Shown in pieces: positions 14,740 to 26,385 of a stretch of 64,000 nucleotides of DNA. The DNA comes from an uncultured Pseudomonadota bacterium (lineage in GTDB: Bacteria > Pseudomonadota > Alphaproteobacteria > Rhizobiales > Xanthobacteraceae), in the NCBI GenBank assembly GCA_963732895.1, contig CAVTBG010000009.1, forward strand, positions 192,005 to 256,004. The letters run 5' to 3'. A program made the translations under genes and the position numbers. The notes under the pieces were generated by a model, which saw only the letters and a program-made list of their open reading frames with translations, had not been told where the DNA came from and made no database searches. The first letter of the stretch is position 1. Each line of letters begins with the position of its first letter.

Positions 14740-15600
14740 ATGGCGCGCATTTCGTCTCTCGCCGAAGCCATCGCCGCAGCCGTCCGCGACGGCGATACTG
14801 TGGCCGTGGAAGGCTTCACGCACCTCATTCCGCATGCGGCGGGTCATGAGATCATCCGTCAGGGTCGAAAAGCTCTGACCCTCATCCGCATGACGCCGGA
14901 CCTCGTCTACGACCAGTTCATCGGCATGGGCTGCGTCGACAAGCTGATCTTTTCGTGGGGCGGAAATCCGGGCGTCGGCTCGCTGCACCGCTTCCGCGAT
15001 GCGGTCGAGAACGGCTGGCCGCACAAGCTCGAGATCGTCGAGCACTCCCACGCCGCCATGGCCAATGCCTATGAGGCCGGCGCCGCCGGCTTGCCCTGCG
15101 CGGTATTCCGCGGCTATATCGGCGGCGACCTGCCCAAGGTCAATCCGAACATTAAGTACATCACTTGCCCGTTCACCGGCGAGAAGCTCGCCGCCATACC
15201 GGCGCATCGGCCGGACGTGGCGGTGATCCATGCCCAACGCGCCGACAAGGCCGGCAACGTGATGATCGAAGGTGTGCTCGGTGTGCAGAAGGAGGCAGTG
15301 CTCGCCTCGCAGCGCTCGGTGGTGACGGTCGAAGAGATCGTCGACGAGTTGCCGGAGCGTAGCCTCAATGCGGTGGTATTGCCGCACTGGACCGTTGGTC
15401 ATGTCGTCGAGGTGCCGGGCGGCGCCTTCCCCTCGTATGCGCAAGGCTATTATCCGCGCAACAACGGTTTCTACAAGCAGTGGGATACGGTCTCGCGCGA
15501 GCGTGACAGCTTCCTCACCTGGATGAAAGAAAACGTGCTGGAGAGGGGCCCTGACGCCTTCGCCCAGTATGCGCGCAAACACCGCGCGGCGGCGGAGTGA
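14740..15600 (+). CDS. pcaI: 3-oxoadipate CoA-transferase subunit A (CatI/GctA type)
   Basis: EGFTHLIPHAAGHEIIRQ, FSWGGNPGVGSLHR, SYAQGYYPRNN; pca context. Confidence 0.9.
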   Translation: MARISSLAEAIAAAVRDGDTVAVEGFTHLIPHAAGHEIIRQGRKALTLIRMTPDLVYDQFIGMGCVDKLIFSWGGNPGVGSLHRFRDAVENGWPHKLEIVEHSHAAMANAYEAGAAGLPCAVFRGYIGGDLPKVNPNIKYITCPFTGEKLAAIPAHRPDVAVIHAQRADKAGNVMIEGVLGVQKEAVLASQRSVVTVEEIVDELPERSLNAVVLPHWTVGHVVEVPGGAFPSYAQGYYPRNNGFYKQWDTVSRERDSFLTWMKENVLERGPDAFAQYARKHRAAAE

Positions 15601-16379
15601 CGACCATGGCCGATTACAAGCCCAATGAAATGATGACTATCGCGGCCGCGCGCGCGCTCAAGAACGACGACGTCTGCTTCGTCGGCATCGGCATGCCGTC
15701 GGCAGCCGCCAATCTCGCGCGCCTGACGCACGCGCCGGATATCACCTTGATCTACGAATCCGGCACGCTCGCCACCAAGCCCAACGTACTGCCGCTTTCG
15801 ATCGGCGACGGAGAACTCTGCGAAACAGCGGTCACGACTGTGTCGGTGCCGGAGATGTTCCGCTACTGGCTGCAGGGCGGGCGCATCAAAGTCGGCTTTC
15901 TCGGCGGCGCGCAGATCGACAAGTTCGCCAACCTCAACACCACCGTGGTCGGCGGCTCCTACGACAAGCCGAAAGTGCGCCTGCCCGGCGGCGGCGGCGC
16001 GCCGGAGATCGCCACCTCGTGCGGCGAAATCTTCATCATCATGGCGCAGTCCAAGCGCGGCTTTGTCGACAAGCTCGATTTCGTCACGTCGATCGGCCAC
16101 GTTACCGGCGGCGATAGCCGACAGAAACTGGGCGTGAAAACCAAAGGCCCGACGCGATTGATCACCGACTTGGCGCTCTTGGAGCCGGATCTGGAGAGCA
16201 AGGAGATGACCGTCGTCTCCATCCACCCGGGCGTCACGCGCGAGCAGATTCAGGAAAACACTGGGTGGGACGTAAAATTTGCCGCTCACGTCGCGGAAAC
16301 GCCGCCACCGACGGCTAAGGAACTCGAAGTCCTGCGCGAACTGCAGGCGCGCACCGCGCGCGCCCATGCGGCGGCGTGA
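15597..16379 (+). CDS. pcaJ: 3-oxoadipate CoA-transferase subunit B (CatJ/GctB type)
   Basis: CFVGIG, LIYESG (catalytic Glu), RLPGGGGAPEIA. Confidence 0.9.
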   Translation: MTTMADYKPNEMMTIAAARALKNDDVCFVGIGMPSAAANLARLTHAPDITLIYESGTLATKPNVLPLSIGDGELCETAVTTVSVPEMFRYWLQGGRIKVGFLGGAQIDKFANLNTTVVGGSYDKPKVRLPGGGGAPEIATSCGEIFIIMAQSKRGFVDKLDFVTSIGHVTGGDSRQKLGVKTKGPTRLITDLALLEPDLESKEMTVVSIHPGVTREQIQENTGWDVKFAAHVAETPPPTAKELEVLRELQARTARAHAAA

Positions 16380-16394
16380 GCAAAGGGGTAGAAC

Positions 16395-17600
16395 ATGCGT
16401 GAAGCTTTCATCTGCGATGCGGTGCGGACGCCGATCGGCCGCTATGCCGGCGGCCTCGCCAAGGTGCGCGCCGACGATCTCGGCGCCATCCCGATCAGGG
16501 CGCTGATCAAGCGCAACCCCAAGATTGATTGGGAGAAGCTCGACGAGGTGTTCTACGGCTGCGCCAATCAGGCCGGGGAGGACAACCGCAACGTCGCACG
16601 CATGGCGCTTCTGCTCGGCGGGCTGCCCGACAACGTGCCGGGCGTGACGCTCAATCGCTTGTGCGCCTCCGGCATGGAGGCGGTGGGCGCCGCCGCCCGC
16701 GCCATCCGCGCCGGCGAAATGGATTTCGCCATCGCAGGCGGCGTCGAATCCATGACTCGCGCGCCCTTCGTGCGAGGCAAGAGCGACGAGGCCTTCTCGC
16801 GTAAGGTCGAGGTCTTCGACACCACCATCGGCTGGCGTTTCGTCAATCCGCTGATGAAGCAGCAATACGGCATCGACTCGATGCCGGAGACCGGTGAGAA
16901 CGTGGCCGAGGAATTCCAGGTCAGCCGCGCCGATCAGGACGCGTTCGCGTTGCGCTCGCAGCAGCGCGCCGCCAAGGCGCAGGCCGACGGCTATTTCGCC
17001 GCCGAGATCGTGCCGGTGGAGATCGCTGGCCGCAAGGAGACGGTGACCGTCGATATGGACGAGCATCCGCGGCCGCAGACCACGCTCGAGCAACTCGCCA
17101 AGCTGAAGACGCCGTTCCGCAACCCCGGCACAGTCACTGCCGGCAATGCTTCCGGCGTCAACGACGGAGCCGCCGCCGTGATCGTCGCTTCGGAAGAGGC
17201 GGTGAAGGCGCACGGGCTGACGCCGCGTGCGCGCGTGCTCGGCATGGCCTCGGCGGCGGTGCCGCCGCGCATCATGGGCATCGGGCCGGTGCCGGCGTCT
17301 CAAAAATTGATGGCGCGCCTTGGGCACAAGATCGGTGACTATGATTTGATTGAGATCAACGAGGCCTTCGCCTCGCAGTCGCTAGCTTGCCTGCGCCAGC
17401 TCGGCCTTCCGGACGATGCGGCCCAAGTCAATCCGCACGGCGGAGCGATTGCGCTCGGCCATCCATTGGGCATGTCGGGTACCCGCTTGGTGCTGACGGC
17501 CGCGCACGGGCTTGAAACGCAGGGCGGCAAGCTAGCGCTTGCCACCATGTGCGTCGGTGTCGGTCAAGGCGCATCGCTGGCCATCGAGCGAGTCACCTGA
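16395..17600 (+). CDS. pcaF: 3-oxoadipyl-CoA thiolase
   Basis: CANQAGEDNRNVARM, NRLCASG, DTTIGWRFVNP, GHPLGMSG, MCVGVGQG. Confidence 0.95.
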   Translation: MREAFICDAVRTPIGRYAGGLAKVRADDLGAIPIRALIKRNPKIDWEKLDEVFYGCANQAGEDNRNVARMALLLGGLPDNVPGVTLNRLCASGMEAVGAAARAIRAGEMDFAIAGGVESMTRAPFVRGKSDEAFSRKVEVFDTTIGWRFVNPLMKQQYGIDSMPETGENVAEEFQVSRADQDAFALRSQQRAAKAQADGYFAAEIVPVEIAGRKETVTVDMDEHPRPQTTLEQLAKLKTPFRNPGTVTAGNASGVNDGAAAVIVASEEAVKAHGLTPRARVLGMASAAVPPRIMGIGPVPASQKLMARLGHKIGDYDLIEINEAFASQSLACLRQLGLPDDAAQVNPHGGAIALGHPLGMSGTRLVLTAAHGLETQGGKLALATMCVGVGQGASLAIERVT

Positions 17601-17633
17601 GCAGAGCCAAGAACAGAAAACGAAGGGACGACA

Positions 17634-18341
17634 ATGTCGCTGATCTATCCGAGGGAGAGCCTCAGTGCTTTTCCCAAGCACTTGAGCCCCGAGTACCGCA
17701 GCACGGTGAAGCGCTCGCCCTCGAAGCCGCTCATCCTCGTGCCGCACACGCTGTCGGAATTGACCGGCCCGGTCTATGGTCACGACTCGGTGCAGGAAGG
17801 CGATAACGACCTCACCAAGCAGCACAAGGGCGAGCCGCTCGGCGAGCGCATCATCGTGCACGGTCATGTGCTCGACGAGGACAAGCGCCCGCAGCCCGAT
17901 ACGCTGGTGGAGATCTGGCAGGCCAACGCCTGCGGCCGCTATGTGCACATTGTCGACCAGCACCCGGCGCCGCTCGATCCCAACTTCACCGGCGGCGGGC
18001 GCACCGTCACCGACGAGAACGGCTATTACCGCTTCGTGACTGTGAAGCCGGGCGCCTATCCGTGGGGCAATCACCACAACGCCTGGCGGCCCAACCACAT
18101 CCACTTTTCGGTGTTCGGCCACTCGTTCCTGTCGCGGCTGGTCACACAGATGTATTTCCCCGGCGATCCGCTGTTCCCGTTCGATCCGATCTTCAACTCG
18201 GTCACTGACGAGAAGGCGCGCCAACGCATGGTCTCGAGCTTCGACCTGGAAAACACCATCCCCGATTGGGCGCTCTGCTTCCGCTTTGACATCGTGCTGC
18301 GCGGGCGCGAGGCCACTCCTCTCGACACGGATAAGCACTAG
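17634..18341 (+). CDS. pcaH: Protocatechuate 3,4-dioxygenase beta chain
   Basis: EIWQANACGRY, PGAYPW, WRPNHIHFS Fe-ligand motifs. Confidence 0.97.
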   Translation: MSLIYPRESLSAFPKHLSPEYRSTVKRSPSKPLILVPHTLSELTGPVYGHDSVQEGDNDLTKQHKGEPLGERIIVHGHVLDEDKRPQPDTLVEIWQANACGRYVHIVDQHPAPLDPNFTGGGRTVTDENGYYRFVTVKPGAYPWGNHHNAWRPNHIHFSVFGHSFLSRLVTQMYFPGDPLFPFDPIFNSVTDEKARQRMVSSFDLENTIPDWALCFRFDIVLRGREATPLDTDKH

Positions 18342-18389
18342 CGCATGATCCCGAAAAGTGGACACCGGTTTTCGGACAAGATCATGCGC
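18341..18389 (+). repeat. 49-bp palindromic element, copy 3 (between pcaH and pcaG)
   Basis: gcgcatgatcccgaaaagtggacaccggttttcggacaagatcatgcgc. Confidence 0.9.
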
Positions 18390-18403
18390 AAAGGGAAAAA
18401 CTA

Positions 18404-19018
18404 ATGTCGGACATCACCCCTTCGCAGACCGTTGGCCCGTACTTCGCCTACGGCCTTACGCCCAAGGGCCGTTGCCAATGGGATCCCAACGGCAGCTATA
18501 GCTGGAAGGAAACCGTCAGCGACAATCTCGTCACCCCCGACGCCAGCGGCGAGCGCATCCACATCGAAGGCACGGTGTTCGACGGTGACGGCCAACCGAT
18601 CAACGACGCCATGATCGAGATCTGGCAGGCAGACAGCCAAGGGCGCTACGCCAGCCCGTATGACAGCCGCGCGCTGCCGAACACCCGCTTCAAAGGCTTC
18701 GGCCGCTCGGCCACCGACAAGAACGGTGTCTACAGCTTCGACACCATCAAGCCGGGCGCGGTGCCGGGCCCGGAGGGCAAAGCCCAAGCTCCACACATCG
18801 TTGTCGCCGTGTATTCGCGCGGCATGCTCCGGCAGATTTATACGCGACTGTATTTTTCCGACGACGCGGCCAACCAAACTGATCCCATTCTAGCGCTGGT
18901 GCCGGCAGACCGGCGTGGGACGCTCATTGCCCACAAGGAGGCGAAGGGCGGCCAGACAATCTACCGCTTCGACATCCGCGTTCAGGGCGAAAACGAAACG
19001 GTTTTCTTCGAAGTCTAG
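18404..19018 (+). CDS. pcaG: Protocatechuate 3,4-dioxygenase alpha chain
   Basis: TPSQTVGPYF, EIWQADSQG, QAPHI, RGML...TRLYF, ETVFFEV. Confidence 0.96.
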   Translation: MSDITPSQTVGPYFAYGLTPKGRCQWDPNGSYSWKETVSDNLVTPDASGERIHIEGTVFDGDGQPINDAMIEIWQADSQGRYASPYDSRALPNTRFKGFGRSATDKNGVYSFDTIKPGAVPGPEGKAQAPHIVVAVYSRGMLRQIYTRLYFSDDAANQTDPILALVPADRRGTLIAHKEAKGGQTIYRFDIRVQGENETVFFEV

Positions 19019-19040
19019 CGATTTCCTGTCGGGATCAGGA

Positions 19041-19071
19041 CAGAGGCGGGCGATCAGGACGCCCGCCTCTG
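19041..19071 (+). terminator. 12-bp perfect stem-loop after pcaG (terminator-like, no clear U tract)
   Basis: cagaggcgggcg-atcagga-cgcccgcctctg. Confidence 0.5.
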
Positions 19072-19305
19072 CCCACATATCTTGACCGAATAGTGGGCAA
19101 AGCCCATTACGTTCATCATCTGCCTCGCTATAGCTCGACATTTTTGACCGCGAATCTGCTTAAAAGTAGTCCGTCTCCTTCGTTCACTCCTGCCCATCCA
19201 CTGTGCCCAACTTTTCCAAATATTGTTTTGTGGTTGACGCCGCCCGTTTGGCTTGGTTCGCTAAGCGCATTAATCGGCCATCGAGAGCCGTACTGGGAAA
19301 CGCGC

Positions 19306-20721
19306 ATGAACGAGCAAATTCTCCAGGAGATCAGCGACTTTTGCCGCCAGCGCGGGCTCGCCAAATCCACCTTCGGCCGCCGCGCGGTGAACGACGGCAA
19401 GCTCGCGAGCCGCTTGCGTAGCGGTGGCCGCATCACCACCGACACGCTGGAGCGCATCCGCTCCTTTATGGCCAGCAACGCCGATGGCGCGCCGGCCCGC
19501 CGACGCGTGCTGTTCGATCCCGCGCCACCGCCGGCACAGACGTTGCCGGTGCTGACGCCACCGGCGCCGCCGGTCGCCTCGGGCCAGGCCAGCGACGACC
19601 CGCAGCGCAATTTCCGCTTCTTCGACAATCGGCAGAAATATCTTCTGTTCGTGAACACCTGCTCGGAGAAGTGGGAGGTCGCCAACCGCGTCAGCCTCGA
19701 GCTCGCCAACATCCATCCGCGCCCGCCGGCGGTGCGCGTGTTCGACGCCGGTGTCGGCGATGGAACCGTGCTCGCGCGCGTGATGCGCACCATGCACGAC
19801 CGCTTCCCCACGATGCCATTCTATATCGTCGGCAAGGAAATCAGCCTGGAGGACGTCCGCCTCACGCTCAATAAGGTCGCCGACCGCTTCGTCGAGCATC
19901 CCTCGACTGTGCTGGTACTCACCAACCTCGCTTATGCCGACGCGCCCTGGCTAGCGGTGAAGTCCTTGAGCGCGGCCTCGAGCCTGGTGTGGAAAGAAGT
20001 GGCGATGGAGGGCAACACCGCCCACGCCTTCGAAAAGCAGATCTCTGACCTCGAACCGTTCCTGGCGGAAGCCTGGAAGGCGGGCGTGTCGCCGAAGAGC
20101 GGCAACCCGGTCTATGAGCGGCCCGTCATCCTGGTGATCTACCGCAACGACCACCGCTTCCTGCTCGACCAGATCGTGCCCAAGCCGGGCGGCACCGTTG
20201 CCGACTACGATCTGGTGATCGCCTCGCAGCCTTATCGCGCGCGCGCCTCGCTTCAGTTCAAGGCCAAGCGCGTCCTGGCGCCGCTTGCGCGCGCGCTCGG
20301 GCCGGGCGGGCGTATGATCGCCATTCATTCCTACGGCCATGATCCCGGCATGGAGATCATCCATAAGGTTTGGCCGGGCGACGATCCGTTCAACCACAGC
20401 CGCCACGACCTGCTCAAGGAAGTGAAGCACGAATTGGGGGCGGCCGGCCGCGATCTCAATTTCAATGCCTATTCCGATCAGCGCTCGCTGTTCCGCTACG
20501 ACATGCACACGCTGCCGTCGGAAATCTCCAATTCGATCGGCACCTCCACGCTGCTCGCAGCCTGGAATGCGGCGATCTACGTGGCGCAGATCGAGGACGA
20601 CCGGCTCTCCGACGTCAACAGCGACCGCCGCTACATCGAGGCCACACGTGAAGCGCTGCAGAAGAACGGCGGGCTCTGGTTCTACGACGAGTCCTTCGTG
20701 ATCTCGCACCGGCGGGAGTGA
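19306..20721 (+). CDS. N-terminal Cro/XRE-like HTH fused through a Pro-rich linker to a class I SAM-methyltransferase-like domain (uncharacterised)
   Basis: 471 aa; STFGRRAVNDGKLASRLRSGG helix-turn-helix-like segment, PAPPPAQTLPVLTPPAPP linker, VFDAGVGDG (motif I), VGKEIS (motif II), YDLVIASQPY (motif IV-like). Confidence 0.75.
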   Translation: MNEQILQEISDFCRQRGLAKSTFGRRAVNDGKLASRLRSGGRITTDTLERIRSFMASNADGAPARRRVLFDPAPPPAQTLPVLTPPAPPVASGQASDDPQRNFRFFDNRQKYLLFVNTCSEKWEVANRVSLELANIHPRPPAVRVFDAGVGDGTVLARVMRTMHDRFPTMPFYIVGKEISLEDVRLTLNKVADRFVEHPSTVLVLTNLAYADAPWLAVKSLSAASSLVWKEVAMEGNTAHAFEKQISDLEPFLAEAWKAGVSPKSGNPVYERPVILVIYRNDHRFLLDQIVPKPGGTVADYDLVIASQPYRARASLQFKAKRVLAPLARALGPGGRMIAIHSYGHDPGMEIIHKVWPGDDPFNHSRHDLLKEVKHELGAAGRDLNFNAYSDQRSLFRYDMHTLPSEISNSIGTSTLLAAWNAAIYVAQIEDDRLSDVNSDRRYIEATREALQKNGGLWFYDESFVISHRRE

Positions 20722-21617
20722 GCGCCATGGAGGACCTGATGACGCTCGACACTGCGCCCGCGCTCGCGCCGGACCGGCTCGCGCGGCGCTTCTCGCTCGA
20801 AGCCACCCGGCCGACGGCCGACGAAATTGCGCGACTGGCCGATACCGTGCCGGCCGGCACCATGATCTATCTCACCGCGGTACCGAACCAGTCCGCGGCC
20901 GAACTGAGCGAAGCCGCCGCGCGCCTGCGTCAGGCCGGACTGGAGCCGGTCGCCCATATCGCCGCCCGCCGGCTGACAAGCCTCGATGAATTGCACGGCC
21001 TGCTGAAAGCCTTGCGCGGCGAAGCGGACATGCGCCGCCTGCTGGTGATTGGCGGCGACATCGACGCCAGCGGCCCGTTGCCCGATGCGCTGGCGGTGAT
21101 CCGGCAGGGCAATTTGCGCGGCCTCGGCTTTGAGGAAATCGGTATCGGCGGCTATCCGGAACCGCACCCGCGCATCGCGCCGGGGCGGCTCGAAGCCGCG
21201 CTCGACGAGAAGATCGCGCACGCGGCGGCGCAGGGCTTGCGTGTCCACATCGTGAGCCAGTTTTCGTTCTCGCCCGAGCGCATCCAGGCCTGGCTCAGGC
21301 AATTGCGCGGCTGCGGCATCACATGGCCGGTGCGGGTCGGCCTGGTCGGTCCCACCAGCGTGCCGGCACTGTTGCGCTTTGCCCGCCGCTGCGGGGTCAA
21401 TGCTTCGCTACGCGGGCTGGCTTCCGGGGTCGCCACCAGCCTGGTCGGCCATGTCGGGCCCGGCCGCATCATCGATGCGCTGTCGGCGGCCGACGATCTG
21501 GGCGATGTTGCCCTGCATTATTTTTCCTTCGGCGGAACAGTTGAAACCGCACGCTACGCGTGCCAAGCCGCTGCGGGACGGCGCGATGCCCATCGTGCTA
21601 TGGCTCACCCCAATTAA
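20718..21617 (+). CDS. metF: Divergent methylenetetrahydrofolate reductase (MetF-like flavoprotein)
   Basis: SLEAT, VAHIAARR, LVIGGD, GGYPEPHP, VSQF correspond to the MetF Glu/His/Asp/Gln motifs; GTGA overlap with the upstream gene. Confidence 0.75.
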   Translation: MSAMEDLMTLDTAPALAPDRLARRFSLEATRPTADEIARLADTVPAGTMIYLTAVPNQSAAELSEAAARLRQAGLEPVAHIAARRLTSLDELHGLLKALRGEADMRRLLVIGGDIDASGPLPDALAVIRQGNLRGLGFEEIGIGGYPEPHPRIAPGRLEAALDEKIAHAAAQGLRVHIVSQFSFSPERIQAWLRQLRGCGITWPVRVGLVGPTSVPALLRFARRCGVNASLRGLASGVATSLVGHVGPGRIIDALSAADDLGDVALHYFSFGGTVETARYACQAAAGRRDAHRAMAHPN

Positions 21618-21667
21618 GCCAGCCCGCCGGTTACAGCGCTGGGCGGCTCCTATGCGGAGGAAAAAAT

Positions 21668-22777
21668 ATGACGCAACGGACCAAACCGCCTTTCAGCGCC
21701 GACGAGGTCGGCAGCCTGCTGCGTACCGCGCCGATCAAGGACGCGCGCGCCAAGCACGAGGCCGGCAAGATCAGCGCCGCCGAGCTCAAGGCGGTCGAAG
21801 ATCAAGAGATCAAGAAGATCATCAAGAAGCAGGAAGAAGTCGGCCTCAAGCTCGCGACCGACGGCGAATTCCGCCGATCGTGGTGGCATTTCGACTTCTA
21901 CGGCGGACTCGATAACGTCGAAATTTACGAGCTCGACCACGGCATCCAGTTCCAGGGCGTACAGACCAAACCGCGCTCGATCCGCGTCAACGGCAAGATC
22001 GGATTTTCCGATCACTACATGCTGGAGCACTTCAAGTTCTTGAAGGCGAATTGCAGCGTCACGCCCAAGATGTGCATACCGGCGCCATCGACTTTCCATT
22101 TCCGGCTTGAGCCGAACGCGGTCAGCAAGGACGCTTATGCGAACCGCGATGCCATCTTCGACGATCTCGCGGTCGCCTATCAGAACGCGATCAAGGCTTT
22201 CTATGCCGCCGGCTGCCGCTATCTGCAGTTCGACGACACGGCCTGGGCCTATCTCTGTTCGCAGGAGCAGATGCAGCAGGCGCGCGACCGCGGCCTCGAC
22301 GTCGATCACCTGCAGGACAGCTACGCCAAGTGCATCAACAAGGCACTGGAAGCCAAGCCCGCCGACATGACCGTCACCACTCATGTTTGTCGCGGCAATT
22401 TCCGCTCCACCTTCATCTCGTCGGGCGGCTACGAGCCGGTGGCCGAGACGCTGCTCGCCAAGTGCAATTACGACGGCTACTTCCTGGAATACGACACCGA
22501 CCGCGCCGGCGGTTTCGAGCCGCTGCGCTTCCTGCCCAAGGGCAACAAGATCGTGGTGCTCGGCCTCGTCACCACCAAGCAGGGTCGGCTCGAGCCGCGT
22601 GCCGACGTCAAGAAGCGCATCGAGGAGGCGACCAAGTTCGTTGCGCTCGATCAGCTTTGCCTGTCGCCGCAGTGCGGCTTTGCCTCCACCGAGGAAGGTA
22701 ACACGCTGGCCGAGGACGAGCAGTGGGCCAAGCTGCGCATGATCGTCGAACTCGCCAGCGAGGTGTGGGGCAAGTAA
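21668..22777 (+). CDS. Core-only cobalamin-independent methionine synthase-like Zn enzyme (MetE C-terminal/YxjH family), paralog 1
   Basis: 369 aa; ADEVGSLLR, TDGEFRRSWWH, HVCRGN, LEYD, SPQCGF (H-x-C...E...C Zn ligands). Confidence 0.9.
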   Translation: MTQRTKPPFSADEVGSLLRTAPIKDARAKHEAGKISAAELKAVEDQEIKKIIKKQEEVGLKLATDGEFRRSWWHFDFYGGLDNVEIYELDHGIQFQGVQTKPRSIRVNGKIGFSDHYMLEHFKFLKANCSVTPKMCIPAPSTFHFRLEPNAVSKDAYANRDAIFDDLAVAYQNAIKAFYAAGCRYLQFDDTAWAYLCSQEQMQQARDRGLDVDHLQDSYAKCINKALEAKPADMTVTTHVCRGNFRSTFISSGGYEPVAETLLAKCNYDGYFLEYDTDRAGGFEPLRFLPKGNKIVVLGLVTTKQGRLEPRADVKKRIEEATKFVALDQLCLSPQCGFASTEEGNTLAEDEQWAKLRMIVELASEVWGK

Positions 22778-22788
22778 GGCCTCCACTT

Positions 22789-22903
22789 TTCCCGGGCGCA
22801 GCGCAGCACGCTGGTGATGCGCTGCAGACCCGGGATCGTTTGCGCCTGTAGCGGACCCGGATCAGCGGTGCACCGCTATCGCGCTGCACCGCATCCGGGA
22901 CAC
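22789..22903. repeat. REPIN-like doublet of (T/G)CCCGG...GC(A/G)GTGCA-type palindromes
   Basis: ttcccgggcgcagcgcagca...tgcgctgcagacccgggat followed by the inverted partner gacccggatcagcggtgcaccgct...tgcaccgcatccgggacac. Confidence 0.8.
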
Positions 22904-22915
22904 GAGGCAACGCAT

Positions 22916-24022
22916 ATGACCCAACGCACAAAACCGCCCTTCCGCGCCGACCATGTCGGTAGTTTGTTGCGTCCGGCCGCGCTGAAGGACGCGCGCGCTC
23001 AATTTGCCAAGGGTGAGATCGATGCCGCCGCGCTGCAGCGGATCGAAGACGACGCCATCAAAGCCGTCGTGAAGAAGCAGGAGGAGGTCGGCCTCAAGCT
23101 CGCCACCGACGGCGAATTCCGCCGCTCGTGGTGGCATTTCGATTTCTTCAAGGGCCTGCAGGGCGTCGACCTCATCGAGGCGCCACCGATCAAGTTCCAC
23201 GGCGTCGTCACCAAGAGCGAGGCCATCAAGATCAACCGCAAGGTCGACTTTGCCGGCCATCCGCATCTGGAGCATTTCAAGTTCTTGAAGGCGAACTGCA
23301 AGGTTACGCCCAAGATGTGCATCCCGGCGCCGAGCACCTTCCACTTTCGCCAGGGAAGGGCGATGGTGAGCAAGGATGCCTATCCCGATATCGACGCATT
23401 CTTCGCCGACGTCGCCGCCGCCTGGAAGAAAGCGATCAAGGCGTTCTACGACGCCGGCTGCCGCTATCTGCAACTCGACGACACCGCCTGGGCGATGATC
23501 TGCGATCCCAAGGAGCGCGAGCAATCGAAGGCGCGCGGCGACGATCCCGACAAGTTGCCGGCGATCTATGCGCAGATGACCAATGCGGCGCTGGCAGACA
23601 AGCCCGCCGACATGGCGATCACCATGCACTCTTGCCGTGGCAACTTCCGTTCCACCTTTATCGCCTCAGGCGGCTATGAGTTCGTCGCCGAGCAGCTGCT
23701 CGGCAACACCAATTTCGACGGTTATTTCCTCGAATACGACACCGACCGGGCCGGCGGTTTCGAGCCGCTGCGCTTCTTCCCCAACGGCGACAAGCAGCTC
23801 GTACTTGGTCTTGTCACCTCCAAGAGCGGGCGCCTCGAGCCGCGCGACGACATCAAGAAGCGCATCGAGGAAGCGACCAAATACGTGCCGCTCGAGCAGC
23901 TCTGCCTGTCGCCGCAATGCGGCTTCTCCTCGACCGAGGAAGGCAACGTGCTGGCCGAGGACGAGCAGTGGGCCAAGCTGCGCATGATCGTGGAATTGGC
24001 CGAGGAAGTGTGGGGCCGCTGA
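22916..24022 (+). CDS. Core-only MetE-like Zn enzyme, paralog 2
   Basis: 368 aa; RADHVGSLLRP, HSCRGN, LEYD, SPQCGF. Confidence 0.9.
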   Translation: MTQRTKPPFRADHVGSLLRPAALKDARAQFAKGEIDAAALQRIEDDAIKAVVKKQEEVGLKLATDGEFRRSWWHFDFFKGLQGVDLIEAPPIKFHGVVTKSEAIKINRKVDFAGHPHLEHFKFLKANCKVTPKMCIPAPSTFHFRQGRAMVSKDAYPDIDAFFADVAAAWKKAIKAFYDAGCRYLQLDDTAWAMICDPKEREQSKARGDDPDKLPAIYAQMTNAALADKPADMAITMHSCRGNFRSTFIASGGYEFVAEQLLGNTNFDGYFLEYDTDRAGGFEPLRFFPNGDKQLVLGLVTSKSGRLEPRDDIKKRIEEATKYVPLEQLCLSPQCGFSSTEEGNVLAEDEQWAKLRMIVELAEEVWGR

Positions 24023-24024
24023 TC

Positions 24025-24117
24025 GTCGTCCCCGCGAAGGCGGGGACCCATACGCCGTGTACTATCGTTAACTGCGGAGTATGGGTCCCGGCCCTCGCTC
24101 CGCTCGGCCGGGACGAC
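24025..24117. repeat. REPIN-like doublet of GTCGTCCC...GGGACCCATA palindromes, copy 1
   Basis: gtcgtccccgcgaaggcggggacccata...tatgggtcccggccctcgctccgctcggccgggacgac. Confidence 0.88.
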
Positions 24118-24124
24118 AAACTCC

Positions 24125-25231
24125 ATGCAACGCACCAAACCGCCCTTCCGCGCCGACCATGTCGGCAGCCTGTTGCGCACCGCGCCTTTGAAAGATGCGC
24201 GTGCCAAGCACGAAAAGGGCGAGATCGACGCCGCCGCGCTCAGCGCAGTGGAAGATCTGGAAATCCAGAGGATCATCAAGCGCCAGGAGGACATCGGCCT
24301 GAAAGCCGTGACCGACGGCGAATTCCGCCGCGCTTTCTGGAATTACGACTTTCTCGGCGGGCTCGACGGCGTCGAAGCCTATCTTGGTGAGCGCAAGATC
24401 AAGTTCCAGGGTATCCAGCCCAAGCCGATGATGCTGCGGGTTACGGCTGAGCTCGGCACGTTCTCCGGCCACCCGATGATCGAGCACTTCAAATTCGTGC
24501 AGGCACACACTAAAGTCGTGCCGAAAATGACGATCCCCTCGCCGTCGTCCTTGCATTTTCGCTACGGCCGCGATGCGGTGCCGGAATCGATCTACCCCGA
24601 CATGGGCGTTTTCTACCGCGACCTCGGCGCCACCTACCGACAGGCTGTGCGCGCTTTTGCCGATGCCGGCTGCCGCTACCTGCAGCTCGACGAGGTCAAT
24701 TTCACATATCTTTGCGATCCGAAGCTGCGCGCGCAGGTGGCGAACCGCGGCGACGATCCCGAGCAGCTTCCTTCGATCTATGCCGGCATGATCAACGCGG
24801 CGATCTCCGACATCCCGGACGACATGACCATCGCCATGCATCTGTGCCGCGGCAATTTCCAATCCACGTTCGTGGCCTCGGGCGGCTACGAGCCGGTGGC
24901 GGAGATCCTGTTTAACACCATCAACGTCCACGGCTATTTCATGGAGTACGATTCCGACCGCGCCGGCGGCTTCGAGCCGCTGCGTTTTGTCCCTAAGGGC
25001 AAGACGGTGGTGCTCGGTCTCGTCACGACGAAGTCGGGGCGGCTCGAATCGCGCGACGAGCTCAAGCGCCGCATCGACGAGGCTTCCAAATACATCGACC
25101 TTGATCAGTTGTGCCTGTCGCCGCAATGCGGCTTTGCCTCAACCGAAGAGGGCAACCTGCTGGCGGAAGAGGAACAGTGGGCTAAGCTCAGGACGATCGT
25201 CGAGGTGGCGCAAGAGATTTGGGGCCGTTGA
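24125..25231 (+). CDS. Core-only MetE-like Zn enzyme, paralog 3
   Basis: 368 aa; RADHVGSLLR, HLCRGN, MEYD, SPQCGF. Confidence 0.9.
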   Translation: MQRTKPPFRADHVGSLLRTAPLKDARAKHEKGEIDAAALSAVEDLEIQRIIKRQEDIGLKAVTDGEFRRAFWNYDFLGGLDGVEAYLGERKIKFQGIQPKPMMLRVTAELGTFSGHPMIEHFKFVQAHTKVVPKMTIPSPSSLHFRYGRDAVPESIYPDMGVFYRDLGATYRQAVRAFADAGCRYLQLDEVNFTYLCDPKLRAQVANRGDDPEQLPSIYAGMINAAISDIPDDMTIAMHLCRGNFQSTFVASGGYEPVAEILFNTINVHGYFMEYDSDRAGGFEPLRFVPKGKTVVLGLVTTKSGRLESRDELKRRIDEASKYIDLDQLCLSPQCGFASTEEGNLLAEEEQWAKLRTIVEVAQEIWGR

Positions 25232-25232
25232 G

Positions 25233-25261
25233 TTATCCCTCCCCTTTCAGGGGAGGGATAA
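25233..25261. repeat. CCCTCCCC-type REP hairpin
   Basis: ttatccctcccct-ttc-aggggagggataa, 13-bp perfect stem; related hairpin at 34813. Confidence 0.75.
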
Positions 25262-25284
25262 AAAAGTGCAGGGAGAGAAACAAA

Positions 25285-26385
25285 ATGTTGCGCACCGTTC
25301 CCCCCTTCCGCGCCGATCATGTCGGCAGCCTCTTGCGCCCGGCCGCGCTCAAAGAAGCGCGCGCGCAATTCGCCAAGGGCGAGATCGATGTCGCCGCGCT
25401 GAAAGCGGTCGAAGACCACGAGATCGAACGCGTCATCAAGAAGCAGGAGGAAGTCGGGCTTAAGAGCATCACCGACGGCGAGTTTCGCCGTTCGTGGTGG
25501 CATCTCGACTTCCTATGGGGGCTCGATGGTGTGGAGAAGCACGTGATGGATGCGGGCGTCGCGTTTGCGGGCGTCAACACCCGCAACGAGGGCGTCAAGG
25601 TCACCGGTAAGATCGACTCTTCCCATCATCCGATGATCGAGCATTTCAAGTTCGTCGCCGCGCACACCCGCCGCACACCCAAGATCACCATCCCGGCGCC
25701 CTCGGCGCTTTATGGGCGGCCCATGCGCCCGCCGATTGACGGGAAGATCTATCCGAAGCTCGACAAGATGTTTGAGGATCTCGGCCAGGCATACAAAAAG
25801 GCCGTGCGCGCCTTCGCCGATGCCGGCTGTCGTTACCTGCAACTCGACGAAGTCTTCATCGCCATGCTGTGCGACGAAAAATACCGCCAGCAGATGAAAG
25901 ACCGCGGCGATGACCCGCAGAGGCTCGGCGAGCTTTACGGCGATCTCATCAACATGGCGATGTCGGACATCCCGTCCGATATGCGCATCACCATGCACAT
26001 GTGCCGCGGCAACTATCGCTCGACCTTCATGGGCTCGGGCGGCTACGAGGCCGAACAGGACATCCTGTTCAACCGCATCAAGGTGCACGGCTACTTCATG
26101 GAGTACGATTCGGACCGCGCTGGCGGGTTCGAGCCGCTGCGTCTCGTACCAAAAGACCGTCAGGTCGTGCTGGGCCTGGTCACCACCAAGACCGGGCGGC
26201 TTGAAACGAAGGACGATCTCAAGCGCCGCATCGAGGAAGCGGCCAAATACATTTCGCTCGACCAGCTTTGCCTCTCCCCGCAATGCGGCTTCGCCTCGAC
26301 GGAAGAGGGCAACACGCTCGCCGAAGAAGAGCAGTGGGCCAAGCTGCGCATGATCGTCGAATTAGCGGAAGAGGTGTGGGGTTGA
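25285..26385 (+). CDS. Core-only MetE-like Zn enzyme, paralog 4
   Basis: 366 aa; RADHVGSLLRP, HMCRGN, MEYD, SPQCGF. Confidence 0.9.
   Translation: MLRTVPPFRADHVGSLLRPAALKEARAQFAKGEIDVAALKAVEDHEIERVIKKQEEVGLKSITDGEFRRSWWHLDFLWGLDGVEKHVMDAGVAFAGVNTRNEGVKVTGKIDSSHHPMIEHFKFVAAHTRRTPKITIPAPSALYGRPMRPPIDGKIYPKLDKMFEDLGQAYKKAVRAFADAGCRYLQLDEVFIAMLCDEKYRQQMKDRGDDPQRLGELYGDLINMAMSDIPSDMRITMHMCRGNYRSTFMGSGGYEAEQDILFNRIKVHGYFMEYDSDRAGGFEPLRLVPKDRQVVLGLVTTKTGRLETKDDLKRRIEEAAKYISLDQLCLSPQCGFASTEEGNTLAEEEQWAKLRMIVELAEEVWG

What the first reader, a model, noticed from the sequence alone, without database searches (positions are those of the whole stretch)
19306..20721. Cro-like HTH fused to an amino-methyltransferase-like domain: a possible SahR analogue
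Seen: about 55 aa of helical N-terminal domain resembling stand-alone phage-type Cro/XRE proteins, a Pro-rich linker, then a Rossmann MTase fold with DAGVGDG, KEIS and DLVIASQPY. The last resembles the (D/N/S)PP(Y/F) motif of HemK and N6-adenine MTases. Known: SahR/SamR regulators combine an ArsR HTH with an MTase-like SAM/SAH sensor and control metF/metE/ahcY. Inference: an independently evolved SAM/SAH-sensing regulator, or an active site-directed DNA/protein MTase, heading a met operon.
Basis: partly seen in the sequence, partly recalled or inferred. Interest (0 to 1): 0.75.

Follow-up and report, generated by a model that had tools for sequence, protein, structure and literature searches.

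The report
HTH-methyltransferase-like regulator of methyl-folate genes
This gene encodes an undescribed type of protein, a phage-Cro-like DNA-binding head tethered to a SAM-methyltransferase-like body, that most likely switches on or off its own operon of methyl-folate / methyl-cycle genes, much as the unrelated regulator SahR does.

Summary
Window 19306-20721 (+) encodes a 471-aa protein. It has a 4-helix N-domain with an XRE/Cro-type HTH fold, a disordered Pro-rich linker, and a class I SAM-methyltransferase fold with intact SAM motifs. Pfam, NCBIfam and PDB sequence searches find nothing, yet homologues fill more than 8000 protein clusters.

The SahR-analogue reading is largely supported.
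- HTH-bearing homologues across Alpha-, Beta- and Gammaproteobacteria carry a conserved array of TGCCCAC/GTGGGCA half-sites just upstream of a conserved -35-like TTGAC.
- Homologues that lack the HTH have no such palindromes.
- The HTH form sits next to an S6MTHFR-like reductase in most loci, to metK-ahcY-MTHFR or metK in two loci, and to a LigM O-demethylase in one.

"Heading a met operon" is imprecise. The neighbouring reductase is a divergent, S6MTHFR-like paralogue beside pca genes. The genome has its own canonical SahR-metF pair elsewhere.

Best reading: a locally acting, autoregulated transcription factor whose methyltransferase-like domain senses SAM, SAH or a related methyl metabolite. 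DNA binding, the effector and any catalysis are inferred, not shown. It is a new family that independently repeats the SahR design.

The parts
19306..20721 (+). Gene X: 471-aa HTH + methyltransferase-like protein (P0001)
   Evidence: ORF and translation. The start codon is conserved in about 80 loci. It is single copy in the genome. No Pfam, NCBIfam or PDB sequence hit.
19306..19485 (+). N-terminal XRE/Cro-type helix-turn-helix domain (residues 1-60)
   Evidence: AF2 model pLDDT 89 with 4 helices. Foldseek neighbours are HipB, SinR and C.Esp1396I and phage Cro/C1-like proteins. phrog_7669 matches at E 7e-7. Invariant residues F23 G24 R25 N29 D30 G31 K32 R36 R38 G40 R50.
19486..19623 (+). Pro/Ala-rich flexible linker (residues about 61-106)
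   Evidence: pLDDT below 50 over residues 62-106. Length and sequence vary among homologues.
19624..20718 (+). Class I SAM-methyltransferase-like domain (residues about 107-471). It has an inserted subdomain between strands beta-3 and beta-4 and a helical insert before the last strand.
   Evidence: Foldseek to HNMT 1jqd (E 2e-7) and other small-molecule MTases. Motifs FDAGxGDG, GKEIS, TN(L/M), ASQP(Y/W/F)R and EHP are conserved in the family.
19071..19107 (.). Distal operator-like half-sites: GCCCAC (19071-19076) and the palindrome GTGGGCAAAGCCCAT (19093-19107)
   Evidence: Same half-site type as in orthologous loci.
19191..19210 (.). Proximal operator-like half-sites: TGCCCAT (19191-19197) and TGCCCAA (19204-19210), about 24-40 nt upstream of the -35-like box
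   Evidence: Half-sites occur at 12.6 per kb upstream of X against 1.3 per kb across the loci.
19230..19262 (+). Conserved promoter-like block: GTGGTTGAC (contains the -35-like TTGACG at 19234-19239), a 17-nt spacer, then TTCGCT (19257-19262, within the conserved TTGGTTCGCT)
   Evidence: Conserved in 65 of 79 upstream regions. Beta/Gamma loci have TGTAAT at the -10 position. The strict sigma-70 scan does not call it in the window.
20718..21617 (+). S6MTHFR-like (type-4-like) methylenetetrahydrofolate reductase paralogue. Its start overlaps the X stop codon.
   Evidence: PDB 7xg9 at E 1.6e-55, against 5e-5 for ordinary MetF. Weak Pfam MTHFR hit of 25.8 bits. Follows X in most loci.
21665..26385 (+). 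Four tandem core-MetE-like genes (PRK06520 type), same strand. Possibly part of the same transcription unit, in Pseudolabrys only.
   Evidence: Pfam Meth_synt_2 and NCBIfam NF005085 at 591 bits. Present after X-MTHFR only in Pseudolabrys loci. No half-sites in their intergenic gaps.
14740..19018 (+). Upstream context: pcaI, pcaJ, pcaF, pcaH and pcaG (protocatechuate branch of the beta-ketoadipate pathway). A hairpin at 19038-19074 follows pcaG.
   Evidence: ORFs. Synteny in Pseudolabrys loci. Inverted repeat I1. The pca gene names rest on my reading of the translations, not on a family scan.

Best explanation
Gene X most likely encodes a locally acting, autoregulated transcription factor of a new family.

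Proposed mechanism:
- The N-terminal XRE/Cro-type HTH binds, probably as a dimer or tetramer, to an array of TGCCCAC/GTGGGCA half-sites.
- These half-sites form 14-bp TGGGnAWWTnCCCA and TGCCCACT-N7-AGTGGGC palindromes in most lineages. In Pseudolabrys they are partly direct repeats.
- The array lies immediately upstream of the -35 box of X's own promoter.
- The C-terminal class I methyltransferase-like domain, joined by a flexible Pro-rich linker, keeps the SAM-binding signature. It acts as the ligand-sensing module, most plausibly for SAM and/or SAH, and modulates DNA binding or RNA polymerase recruitment.

Target genes:
- X itself plus the co-directional S6MTHFR-like reductase.
- In Pseudolabrys, probably also the four core-MetE-like genes.
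- In other lineages, metK-ahcY-MTHFR or ligM.

The protein would therefore tune how methyl groups carried on folate are shared between the SAM cycle and oxidation or assimilation. In this genome it works beside the protocatechuate pathway.

What is shown and what is inferred:
- Shown: domain folds, motif conservation, the conserved upstream array and its restriction to HTH-bearing forms, and the gene neighbourhoods.
- Inferred: that X is the protein binding the array, the effector identity, and the sign of regulation. Site position upstream of -35 suggests activation.
For: (1) Fold of the N-domain.
- XRE/lambda-repressor-type HTH, with a phrog_7669 match.
- The helix-2/turn/helix-3 segment STFGRxAVNDGKLxxRLRxG is nearly invariant from Alpha- to Gammaproteobacteria. 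It carries five invariant basic residues.

(2) Phylogenetic footprint.
- 65 of 79 upstream regions share the block [GTGGGCA]-[CCCAC]-[TGCCCAC]-N7-[GTGGGC]-TTTTGTGGTTGAC-N17-(TTCGCT/TGTAAT).
- Half-site density is 12.6 per kb in the 250 bp upstream, against 1.3 per kb across the loci.
- 65% of upstream regions have 3 or more half-sites, against 1.8% of random windows.
- The same type of palindrome (TGGGAAATATCCCA, TGGGATTAATCCCA) occurs upstream of X where the downstream gene differs.

(3) Control.
- 0 of 14 homologues lacking the HTH have a TGGG-N4-10-CCCA palindrome upstream.

(4) Neighbours vary but stay on one theme.
- An S6MTHFR-like gene follows X in most of 80 loci, including Burkholderiales and Gammaproteobacteria.
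- In an even sample of 301 Alphaproteobacteria it was adjacent to 7 HTH-forms, twice divergently, and to none of about 12 HTH-less forms.
- Other arrangements are X-metK-ahcY-MTHFR in L078 and X-metK in L081, X-ligM in L098, and X plus another MTHFR in L096.
- This resembles the published SahR regulon (metK, ahcY, metF; PMC4239095).

(5) SAM-binding hallmarks.
- GxGxG after beta-1, Glu after beta-2 and Asn after beta-3 are conserved in the family, on a class I MTase fold.

(6) No second strong site in this or eight other genomes, so the regulon looks local.
Against: - No experiment. DNA binding and ligand binding are both inferred.
- Foldseek E-values for the 62-residue HTH are not significant (0.02-2).
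- Pfam HTH models do not match.
- The strict sigma-70 scan finds no promoter in the window.
- In the window's own lineage the array is less palindromic, with direct TGCCCA repeats and degenerate sites.
- Two lineages show no such motif: L099/L100, where X and the MTHFR-like gene are divergent, and the distant HTH paralogues P0135 and P0142.
- The C-domain is very strongly conserved (about 65% identity between classes).
- It also exists as a stand-alone protein of about 380 aa with the extra invariant motifs EHP and ASQPYR. This looks more like an enzyme than a pure sensor.
- About 6 of 15 HTH-form genomes in the even sample had no S6MTHFR-like gene at E <= 1e-15.
- An earlier unchecked note (e1-4113827) reports a 401-aa form, apparently without an HTH, coupled to an MTHFR gene.
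Confidence: 0.55

Rival explanations
1. Bifunctional enzyme-regulator. The C-domain is a catalytically active SAM-dependent methyltransferase for a small molecule, possibly N-methylating. The HTH only autoregulates its gene and couples expression of the neighbouring C1 genes to it. BirA, NadR, PutA and the HTH-bearing DNA methyltransferase M.SsoII work this way.
For: - Full SAM-binding signature plus further invariant residues (EHP, R280, W257, ASQPYR, Y425) shared with HTH-less homologues at 49-62% identity.
- The HTH-less forms stand alone in unrelated contexts, so the domain has a function of its own.
- Structural neighbours are true enzymes with cap domains, such as HNMT, GtmA and SABATH enzymes.
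- The S-Q-P-Y loop after beta-4 is where amino-methyltransferases carry their catalytic motif.
Against: - No substrate can be proposed from context.
- HTH-less forms are not linked to MTHFR or methyl-cycle genes in my sample, so catalysis and the C1 link do not travel together.
- The divergent HTH paralogues P0135 and P0142 have lost motif I and the beta-2 Glu. This shows the scaffold can serve as a non-catalytic sensor.
Confidence: 0.25
2. Pure metabolic enzyme. The N-terminal helical domain does not bind DNA and instead serves as a protein-protein or oligomerisation module. X works with the S6MTHFR-like enzyme as the methyl-THF-producing 'demethylase/methyltransferase' partner that type-4 MTHFRs are reported to need.
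For: - Type-4 MTHFRs are described as paired with a methyl-THF-generating enzyme (PMC11868366).
- X is the gene most constantly adjacent to this MTHFR clade, often with overlapping stop and start codons.
- No other demethylase is conserved in the neighbourhood outside Pseudolabrys.
Against: - The conserved palindromic array tracks the presence of the HTH domain.
- X also precedes metK-ahcY (L078), or ligM itself (L098), where a demethylase already exists.
- X and the MTHFR-like gene are divergently transcribed in two genomes.
- HTH-less homologues are not next to MTHFR genes.
- No class I SAM-MTase-fold enzyme is known to methylate THF (my knowledge).
Confidence: 0.1
3. HTH-directed DNA or protein amino-methyltransferase. 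The HTH docks the enzyme at TGCCCAC-type sites, where it methylates DNA or a bound protein.
For: - The S-x-P-Y loop after beta-4 is reminiscent of (D/N/S)PP(Y/F).
- An HTH fused to an MTase occurs in some restriction-modification methyltransferases (my knowledge).
Against: - No DNA-MTase or HemK structures appear among the top 50 Foldseek hits.
- No Pfam or NCBIfam DNA-methylase match.
- No restriction enzyme or mobile context. The neighbours are metabolic.
- The motif has Gln in place of the first Pro.
Confidence: 0.04

Closest known systems
SahR / SamR (ArsR-family HTH + SAM-methyltransferase-like domain; SAH-responsive regulators of metK, ahcY, metF and metH in Proteobacteria; PMC4239095)
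   Same: - One polypeptide with an N-terminal DNA-binding domain and a C-terminal class I MTase-like domain that keeps its SAM-binding motifs.
- The gene lies next to MTHFR, metK or ahcY genes.
- Palindromic sites lie upstream of its own operon.
   Different: - The DNA-binding domain is XRE/Cro type, not an ArsR winged helix.
- The MTase-like domain is about 365 aa with two inserts and is invisible to Pfam Methyltransf models. The genome's own SahR scores 89 bits on Methyltransf_11.
- BLAST between the two proteins aligns only the generic motifs (E 0.024).
- The operator is TGGGC/GCCCA-based, not ATC-N10-GAT.
- Both regulators coexist in this genome, each beside its own MTHFR.
XRE / Cro-C1 family regulators with C-terminal sensor or oligomerisation domains (HipB, SinR, DdrO, C.Esp1396I)
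   Same: Fold of the first 60 residues (TM 0.62-0.71, rmsd about 2.1 A). A RLRNGGRxT...TL segment resembles the family's recognition-helix and turn consensus (my knowledge). Sites are palindromic.
   Different: No match to Pfam HTH_3 or HTH_31. There are four helices rather than five. I know of no XRE member described with a methyltransferase-like C-domain.
Histamine N-methyltransferase and other small-molecule class I MTases (GtmA/TmtA, OxaG/RoqN, SABATH)
   Same: Best structural neighbours of residues about 107-471 (E 2e-7 to 1e-4, TM 0.5-0.58 normalised to the target). All share a Rossmann core plus a cap.
   Different: 8-13% sequence identity. No sequence-level hit even with a family profile. 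There is an extra insert of about 95 residues between beta-3 and beta-4. An HTH is fused at the N-terminus.
Enzyme-regulator fusions (BirA, NadR, PutA; M.SsoII-type methyltransferases with an autoregulatory HTH)
   Same: An HTH fused to an enzyme fold, with autoregulation of its own operon. This would apply if X is catalytically active.
   Different: No homology. X's catalytic activity is unknown. The context is C1/methyl metabolism, not restriction-modification or cofactor ligation.
S6MTHFR / type-4 MTHFR with LigM (Sphingobium lignivorans SYK-6; PMC11868366), for the regulated neighbour gene
   Same: The downstream gene's closest solved relative is 7xg9 (192 bits). Sister Pseudolabrys loci also carry a LigM orthologue and pca genes.
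   Different: X-linked reductases keep P49 and F269 but have V/I/P at L48 and S/C/A at P268, so the direction of the reaction is not settled. The papers read here do not mention an X-like gene in SYK-6. I did not search that genome.

Membership tests
SahR/SamR regulators | ArsR-type winged-helix HTH (Pfam HTH_5 / HTH_20) at the N-terminus | tested here: not met
   No Pfam hit for X, whether whole or as the N-domain at E <= 10. The fold is XRE type. The genome's true SahR does hit HTH_5 at 53 bits.
SahR/SamR regulators | C-terminal Methyltransf_11/25-type SAM-MTase domain homologous to SahR | tested here: not met
   No Methyltransf_* hit. BLAST of X against the own-genome SahR aligns only generic motifs (E 0.024).
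SahR/SamR regulators | Controls SAM-cycle / methionine genes (metK, ahcY, metF, metH) from palindromic sites | tested here: inconclusive
   Neighbourhood only: MTHFR-like in most loci, and metK-ahcY-MTHFR in L078. The operator-like palindromes have a different sequence.
SahR/SamR regulators | SAH (or SAM) is the effector | not testable with these tools
   Only the conservation of SAM-binding motifs can be shown.
XRE / Cro-C1 (lambda-repressor-like) HTH family | Helical bundle with helix-turn-helix geometry | tested here: met
   AF2 pLDDT 89. Nearly all of the top 50 PDB neighbours are XRE-type HTH domains, with TM up to 0.71 and rmsd about 2.1 A. Viral neighbours reach TM 0.82. E-values are weak because the domain is short.
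XRE / Cro-C1 (lambda-repressor-like) HTH family | Sequence-profile membership (Pfam HTH_3, HTH_31 and similar) | tested here: not met
   No HTH family at E <= 10. Only phrog_7669, of unknown function, matches at E 7e-7.
XRE / Cro-C1 (lambda-repressor-like) HTH family | Sequence-specific binding to a palindromic operator | tested here: inconclusive
   A conserved half-site array upstream of HTH-forms only is consistent with binding but does not demonstrate it.
Class I SAM-dependent methyltransferases | Seven-stranded Rossmann-like fold | tested here: met
   64 PDB chains at Foldseek E <= 1e-3, and all 50 listed are class I MTases. The strand order from DSSP fits.
Class I SAM-dependent methyltransferases | Motif I GxGxG after beta-1 and an acidic residue at the end of beta-2 | tested here: met
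   FDAGVGDG (146-153) and E178 in GKEIS. Both are conserved in nearly all representatives except P0135 and P0142.
Class I SAM-dependent methyltransferases | SAM binding and methyl transfer | not testable with these tools
Amino-methyltransferases with (D/N/S)PP(Y/F) (HemK/PrmC, N6-adenine DNA MTases) | Motif IV (D/N/S)-P-P-(Y/F) after beta-4 | tested here: not met
   The sequence is S-Q-P-Y (307-310), with Gln replacing the first Pro. Family variants are SQPW, SQPF and SHLY.
Amino-methyltransferases with (D/N/S)PP(Y/F) (HemK/PrmC, N6-adenine DNA MTases) | Closest structures are HemK or DNA/RNA amino-MTases | tested here: not met
   None among the top 50 Foldseek hits.
Type-4 (S6MTHFR-type) MTHFR, for the neighbour gene 20718-21617 | Closest to S6MTHFR, with signature residues Leu48-Pro49, Arg78 and Pro268-Phe269 | tested here: inconclusive
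   7xg9 at E 1.6e-55, against 5e-5 for ordinary MetF. P49, R78 and F269 are kept, but L48 is Val and P268 is Ser.

The most novel reading that the evidence does not exclude
X may be a catalytic 'enzyme-sensor'. In this reading it is an active SAM-dependent N-methyltransferase whose turnover, or whose own methylation or ligand state, directly sets transcription of methyl-folate genes. The boldest form is a SAM:tetrahydrofolate N5-methyltransferase that, together with the S6MTHFR-like oxidase, drains surplus SAM methyl groups into the methylene-THF pool. That would be a previously unknown route and a new chemistry for the class I MTase fold. The HTH-less homologues would be the same enzyme without the switch.
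Probability: 0.12. Interest if true: 0.9.

Novelty: new variant of a known kind. Interest (0 to 1): 0.68.

Why it matters
- **A second origin for the SahR design.** The 'HTH plus methyltransferase-like sensor' architecture of SahR would have arisen a second time, from different parts (an XRE head and an HNMT-like body). This would be convergent evolution of a metabolite-sensing regulator for the methyl cycle.
- **A name for a large uncharacterised family.** More than 8000 protein clusters have no Pfam or NCBIfam model. About 10% of sampled Alphaproteobacteria carry a member, roughly half of them with the HTH. Some Beta- and Gammaproteobacteria carry one too.
- **A candidate control element for S6MTHFR-type reductases and LigM O-demethylases.** These enzymes matter for lignin-aromatic valorisation. 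The 2025 S6MTHFR paper raised a link to methionine status but left it unexplained.
- **An immediately testable system.** The predicted operator (TGGGnAWWTnCCCA and TGCCCACT-N7-AGTGGGC) and the candidate effectors (SAM, SAH) can go straight to the bench.

Tried and rejected
- **Sequence annotation of X found nothing.** Pfam, NCBIfam, PDB phmmer and a PDB profile search with the family alignment all failed. An N-domain profile against the PDB also failed.
- **The word-based homologue search with the 62-aa N-domain** returned only fragments of the fused protein, not stand-alone relatives.
- **No riboswitch or other Rfam family** in the window at gathering thresholds.
- **The strict sigma-70 and terminator scan** of 18950-19400 found nothing. 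The promoter inference therefore rests on conservation only.
- **The search for further operator sites gave counts equal to controls.** This covered regex and cluster scans of the own genome and a pattern scan of eight other genomes. Only the doubled sites in front of X stood out, so a wide regulon was rejected.
- **Sites in front of ligM or between the MetE-like genes:** none convincing.
- **Plasmid collection:** no homologue.
- **The search for related loci with the 16-sequence alignment failed** because it was too divergent. I repeated it with a closer alignment.
- **One exact-sequence look-up failed**.
- **Rejected: 'housekeeping methionine operon'.** The canonical SahR-metF pair lies elsewhere.
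- **Rejected: 'X is the demethylase partner of the MTHFR' as the main reading.** X also precedes ligM and metK-ahcY, and HTH-less forms are unlinked to MTHFR genes in my sample.
- **Literature searches** found no description of an XRE-methyltransferase regulator.
Full report
**1. The observation.**

Window 19306-20721 (+) is an intact 471-aa ORF, P0001. A longer frame from GTG 19093 exists. However, the ATG at 19306, preceded by a GGGAA/AGGAA-type ribosome-binding site, is the start conserved in about 80 orthologous loci.

The quoted motifs are present: VFDAGVGDG (residues 145-153), GKEIS (176-180) and DLVIASQPY (302-310).

Pfam, NCBIfam and PDB sequence searches give nothing. A profile of the family against the PDB also gives nothing. 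Yet the protein has more than 8000 homologous 90%-identity clusters, mostly labelled 'hypothetical'. The closest come from Pseudolabrys MAGs at 84-97% identity. In the 50%-identity representative library there are 2168 hits. The gene is single copy in its genome.

**2. Domain anatomy.**

AlphaFold2 on a 16-sequence alignment gives pLDDT 82. The model has three parts:
- four N-terminal helices (2-15, 22-30, 32-38, 45-59);
- a disordered Pro/Ala-rich linker (62-106, pLDDT below 50);
- an alternating beta/alpha domain from about residue 107 to 471.

Foldseek against the PDB places the large domain among class I SAM-dependent small-molecule methyltransferases. The best hit is human histamine N-methyltransferase 1jqd (E 2e-7). 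GtmA/TmtA, OxaG/RoqN, mycobacterial fatty-acid O-MTase and SABATH enzymes follow. Identities are only 8-13%.

Mapping the secondary structure onto the sequence shows the canonical SAM-binding features:
- GxGxG after beta-1;
- Glu178 after beta-2;
- invariant Asn207 after beta-3;
- the loop S-Q-P-Y after beta-4.

There is also an insert of about 95 residues between beta-3 and beta-4, and a helical insert before the last strand.

The N-domain modelled alone on an 18-sequence alignment has pLDDT 89. Nearly all of its 50 best PDB neighbours are XRE/lambda-repressor-type HTH DNA-binding domains: HipB, SinR, C.Esp1396I, DdrO and a designed DNA binder (TM 0.62-0.71, rmsd about 2.1 A over about 56 residues). 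In the viral library the best matches are small phage proteins and Cro/C1 repressors, with TM up to 0.82. E-values are weak (0.02-2) because the domain is short. Independently, phrog_7669, a family of about 105-aa phage proteins of unknown function, matches at E 7e-7.

The comparison with (D/N/S)PP(Y/F) enzymes is not borne out. The motif is SQPY, and no HemK or DNA-MTase structure is among the neighbours.

**3. Two forms of the family.**

Many homologues of about 380 aa lack the first 90 or so residues (P0123, P0127, P0128, P0129, P0151, P0183). For P0123 the upstream gap is only 100 bp, so the HTH is truly absent.

In an even sample of 301 alphaproteobacterial genomes, 29 have a homologue. 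About 16 carry the HTH and about 12 do not.

Both forms keep FDAGxGDG, GKEIS, TN(L/M), EHP and ASQP(Y/W/F)R. Two distant HTH-bearing paralogues sit in aromatic-catabolic clusters: P0135 (41% identity) and P0142 (38%). They have lost motif I and the beta-2 Glu. The scaffold can therefore exist as an autonomous, probably enzymatic protein, and also as a non-SAM-binding sensor attached to the same HTH.

**4. A conserved operator-like array.**

The N-domain is extremely conserved. The segment LAESTFGRRAVNDGKLxSRLRNGGRITTDTL is nearly identical from Pseudolabrys to Burkholderiales and Gammaproteobacteria. The invariant residues include R25, K32, R36, R38 and R50.

Upstream of the gene, 65 of 79 loci share one architecture:
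- consensus ..tGGGcAAT..CCCAcTAT..TTGCCCACt-N7-aGTGGGc..TTTTGTGGTTGAC-N14-17-TTGGTTCGCT;
- that is, four helically phased TGCCCAC/GTGGGCA half-sites;
- these form a 14-bp palindrome (for example TGGGCAATTGCCCA in L071) and a TGCCCACT-N7-AGTGGGC palindrome;
- both lie directly upstream of a conserved -35-like TTGAC;
- seventeen nucleotides further on lies TGTAAT in Beta/Gamma loci and TTCGCT in Alpha loci.

Half-sites occur at 12.6 per kb in the 250 bp upstream of X, against 1.3 per kb across the loci. 65% of upstream regions have 3 or more, against 1.8% of random 250-bp windows.

The window itself has GCCCAC (19071), GTGGGCAAAGCCCAT (19093-19107), TGCCCAT (19191-19197) and TGCCCAA (19204-19210). 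These are followed by GTGGTTGAC (19230-19238) and TTGGTTCGCT (19253-19262). In Pseudolabrys the proximal pair is a direct repeat rather than an inverted one.

In more distant HTH-forms with different downstream genes, the same kind of palindrome recurs: TGGGAAATATCCCA in L098, and TGGGATTAATCCCA and TGGGAAATTTCCCA in L096. Similar arrays occur in L111, L112 and L114.

As a control, none of 14 HTH-less homologues has a TGGG-N4-10-CCCA palindrome in its upstream region.

Scans of the own genome and of eight other genomes found no second site comparable to the doubled one in front of X.

The only gene common to all these loci is X. The motif travels with the HTH. I therefore infer that X binds it and autoregulates. 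The position upstream of -35 suggests activation, but this is inference.

Exceptions were L099/L100, where X and the MTHFR-like gene are divergent, and the distant paralogues. I saw no such motif in either.

**5. What it sits next to.**

In the window, the X stop codon overlaps the start of a 299-aa MTHFR-family gene (20718-21617). That gene hits Pfam MTHFR only weakly (25.8 bits). It matches PDB 7xg9 strongly (E 1.6e-55), against 5e-5 for ordinary MetF. I take 7xg9 to be S6MTHFR of Sphingobium lignivorans SYK-6. PMC11868366 shows this enzyme to oxidise methyl-THF to methylene-THF and to pair with THF-dependent demethylases such as LigM.

The X-linked clade keeps P49 and F269, and mostly R78. 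It has V/I/P at L48 and S/C/A at P268. I call it S6MTHFR-like and leave the direction of the reaction open.

This gene follows X in most of the 80 loci, including Xanthobacteraceae, Rhodoplanes, Burkholderiales and Gammaproteobacteria. In the even sample it was adjacent to 7 HTH-forms, twice divergently, and to none of the HTH-less forms. About 6 HTH-form genomes had no such gene. Outside Pseudolabrys the other neighbours are unrelated housekeeping genes.

Other arrangements are informative:
- L078: X-metK-ahcY-MTHFR-like.
- L081: X-metK.
- L098: X, then a LigM orthologue (645 bits to 5tl4).
- L096: X, then a different MTHFR.

In Pseudolabrys the pair lies between pcaIJFHG and three to four core-MetE-like genes. 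Seven sister loci additionally carry a LigM orthologue right after the reductase. The window's genome has no LigM.

The common theme is methyl groups on folate and the SAM cycle. This is essentially the published SahR regulon (metK, ahcY, metF; PMC4239095).

**6. Relation to SahR.**

The genome carries a canonical SahR-type protein (HTH_5 at 53 bits plus Methyltransf_11 at 89 bits) at C1:297190-298215. It lies immediately beside the canonical metF, which scores 247 bits on Pfam MTHFR.

BLAST of X against this SahR aligns only the generic beta-4/beta-5 and motif-I segments (E 0.024). X is therefore not a SahR family member. The defining HTH type, domain family and operator are all not met.

It does repeat the SahR design with different building blocks, and it coexists with SahR, each regulator beside its own reductase.

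**7. Interpretation.**

Best-supported reading (about 0.55): X is an autoregulated local transcription factor whose methyltransferase-like domain senses a methyl-status metabolite, most plausibly SAM and/or SAH. It controls an S6MTHFR-like enzyme and, depending on the lineage, metK-ahcY, ligM or the core-MetE-like genes.

A physiological rationale, which is inference: the cell must decide whether folate-bound methyl groups go to methionine and SAM or are oxidised to methylene-THF. Such methyl groups come, for example, from O-demethylation of lignin-derived aromatics, which feeds protocatechuate into the adjacent pca pathway. A SAM/SAH sensor is the logical input for that decision. PMC11868366 notes that excess methionine inhibits growth of SYK-6 on vanillate, which hints at such coupling.

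Main rival (about 0.25): the C-domain is still an active methyltransferase, and X is an enzyme-regulator fusion. The strong conservation of extra residues and the autonomous HTH-less forms favour this.

Less likely readings are a pure enzyme partner of the reductase (about 0.1) and an HTH-guided DNA/protein methyltransferase (about 0.04).

**8. Limits.**

- Nothing here shows DNA binding, ligand binding or regulation directly.
- The earlier notes of this scan are unchecked AI notes. They independently report the same gene pair in other genomes, one case beside metK, and one 401-aa form coupled to an MTHFR gene. I confirmed the metK association in L078 and L081. I did not see an HTH-less form next to an MTHFR gene in my own sample.

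**9. Verdict.**

The 'SahR analogue' idea is substantially supported by comparative genomics, but the 'met operon' label should be replaced by 'methyl-folate / methyl-cycle module beside aromatic catabolism'. This is a new protein family and a convergent variant of a known regulatory design, with clear and inexpensive experiments available. Interest 0.68.

Noticed in passing
window 21665-26385: Four tandem core-MetE-like paralogues (PRK06520 type, 59-69% identical to the first) follow the reductase only in Pseudolabrys. A fifth copy lies on contig C8. The genome has no LigM, whereas sister Pseudolabrys genomes have one in this very cluster. These Zn-type methyltransferases might therefore substitute as methyl-ether or methyl-thio demethylases.
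   Followed up: partly
own genome C1:296284-298215 (outside the window): A canonical SahR-type regulator (ArsR HTH_5 + Methyltransf_11) sits directly beside the canonical metF. The genome thus has two separate 'HTH + MTase-like protein next to an MTHFR' pairs built from unrelated parts.
   Followed up: yes
L078:7995-13108 and L081:7995-10606: In two uncultured Alphaproteobacteria/Rhodospirillales the X orthologue heads X-metK-ahcY-MTHFR-like (L078) or X-metK (L081). The L078 reductase reads as if frameshifted, possibly a long-read assembly error.
   Followed up: partly
L005, L007, L011, L019, L020, L024, L026 (about 10.3-15.5 kb in each locus): LigM orthologues, 64-70% identical to the L098 LigM, lie on the opposite strand just after the S6MTHFR-like gene in seven Pseudolabrys loci. 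This gives a pca-X-MTHFR-ligM-MetE-like island.
   Followed up: partly
window 20718-21617 and orthologues (alignment A4): The X-linked reductases form a group related to S6MTHFR but with Val/Ile/Pro at Leu48 and Ser/Cys/Ala at Pro268. The 2025 paper ties both positions to NADH exclusion, so their cofactor use and direction are open.
   Followed up: partly
L085:2902-4344 and L082:1243-2646: Distant paralogues (38-41% identity) keep the same HTH but have lost the SAM motif I and the beta-2 Glu. They lie in or beside aromatic-type catabolic clusters (VanA-like Rieske oxygenase, SnoaL, cupin, HpcH). They may be regulators that sense a different ligand.
   Followed up: partly
L091, L092/L093, L083, L094; genomes G118, G308, G081 and others: HTH-less homologues of about 380 aa (49-62% identical) occur in about 4% of sampled Alphaproteobacteria in unrelated contexts. 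One marine example lies near an MTTB-family methyltransferase and a DAO oxidase. Their function is unknown.
   Followed up: partly
L020, L024, L026, about 230-260 bp upstream of ligM: A conserved TGGGCA-N13-GCCCAC-N4-TGCCCAC element, made of the same half-site type as in front of X, could be a second X site or could lie inside the next gene's start.
   Followed up: no
own genome C15:402960-403824: A third MTHFR-family locus scores in two pieces (59 and 55 bits). It may be split or frameshifted.
   Followed up: no
window 19038-19074: A 15-nt-arm GC-rich inverted repeat sits right after pcaG. It is a likely terminator of the pca operon without a T-tract, and it abuts the first GCCCAC half-site.
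   Followed up: no
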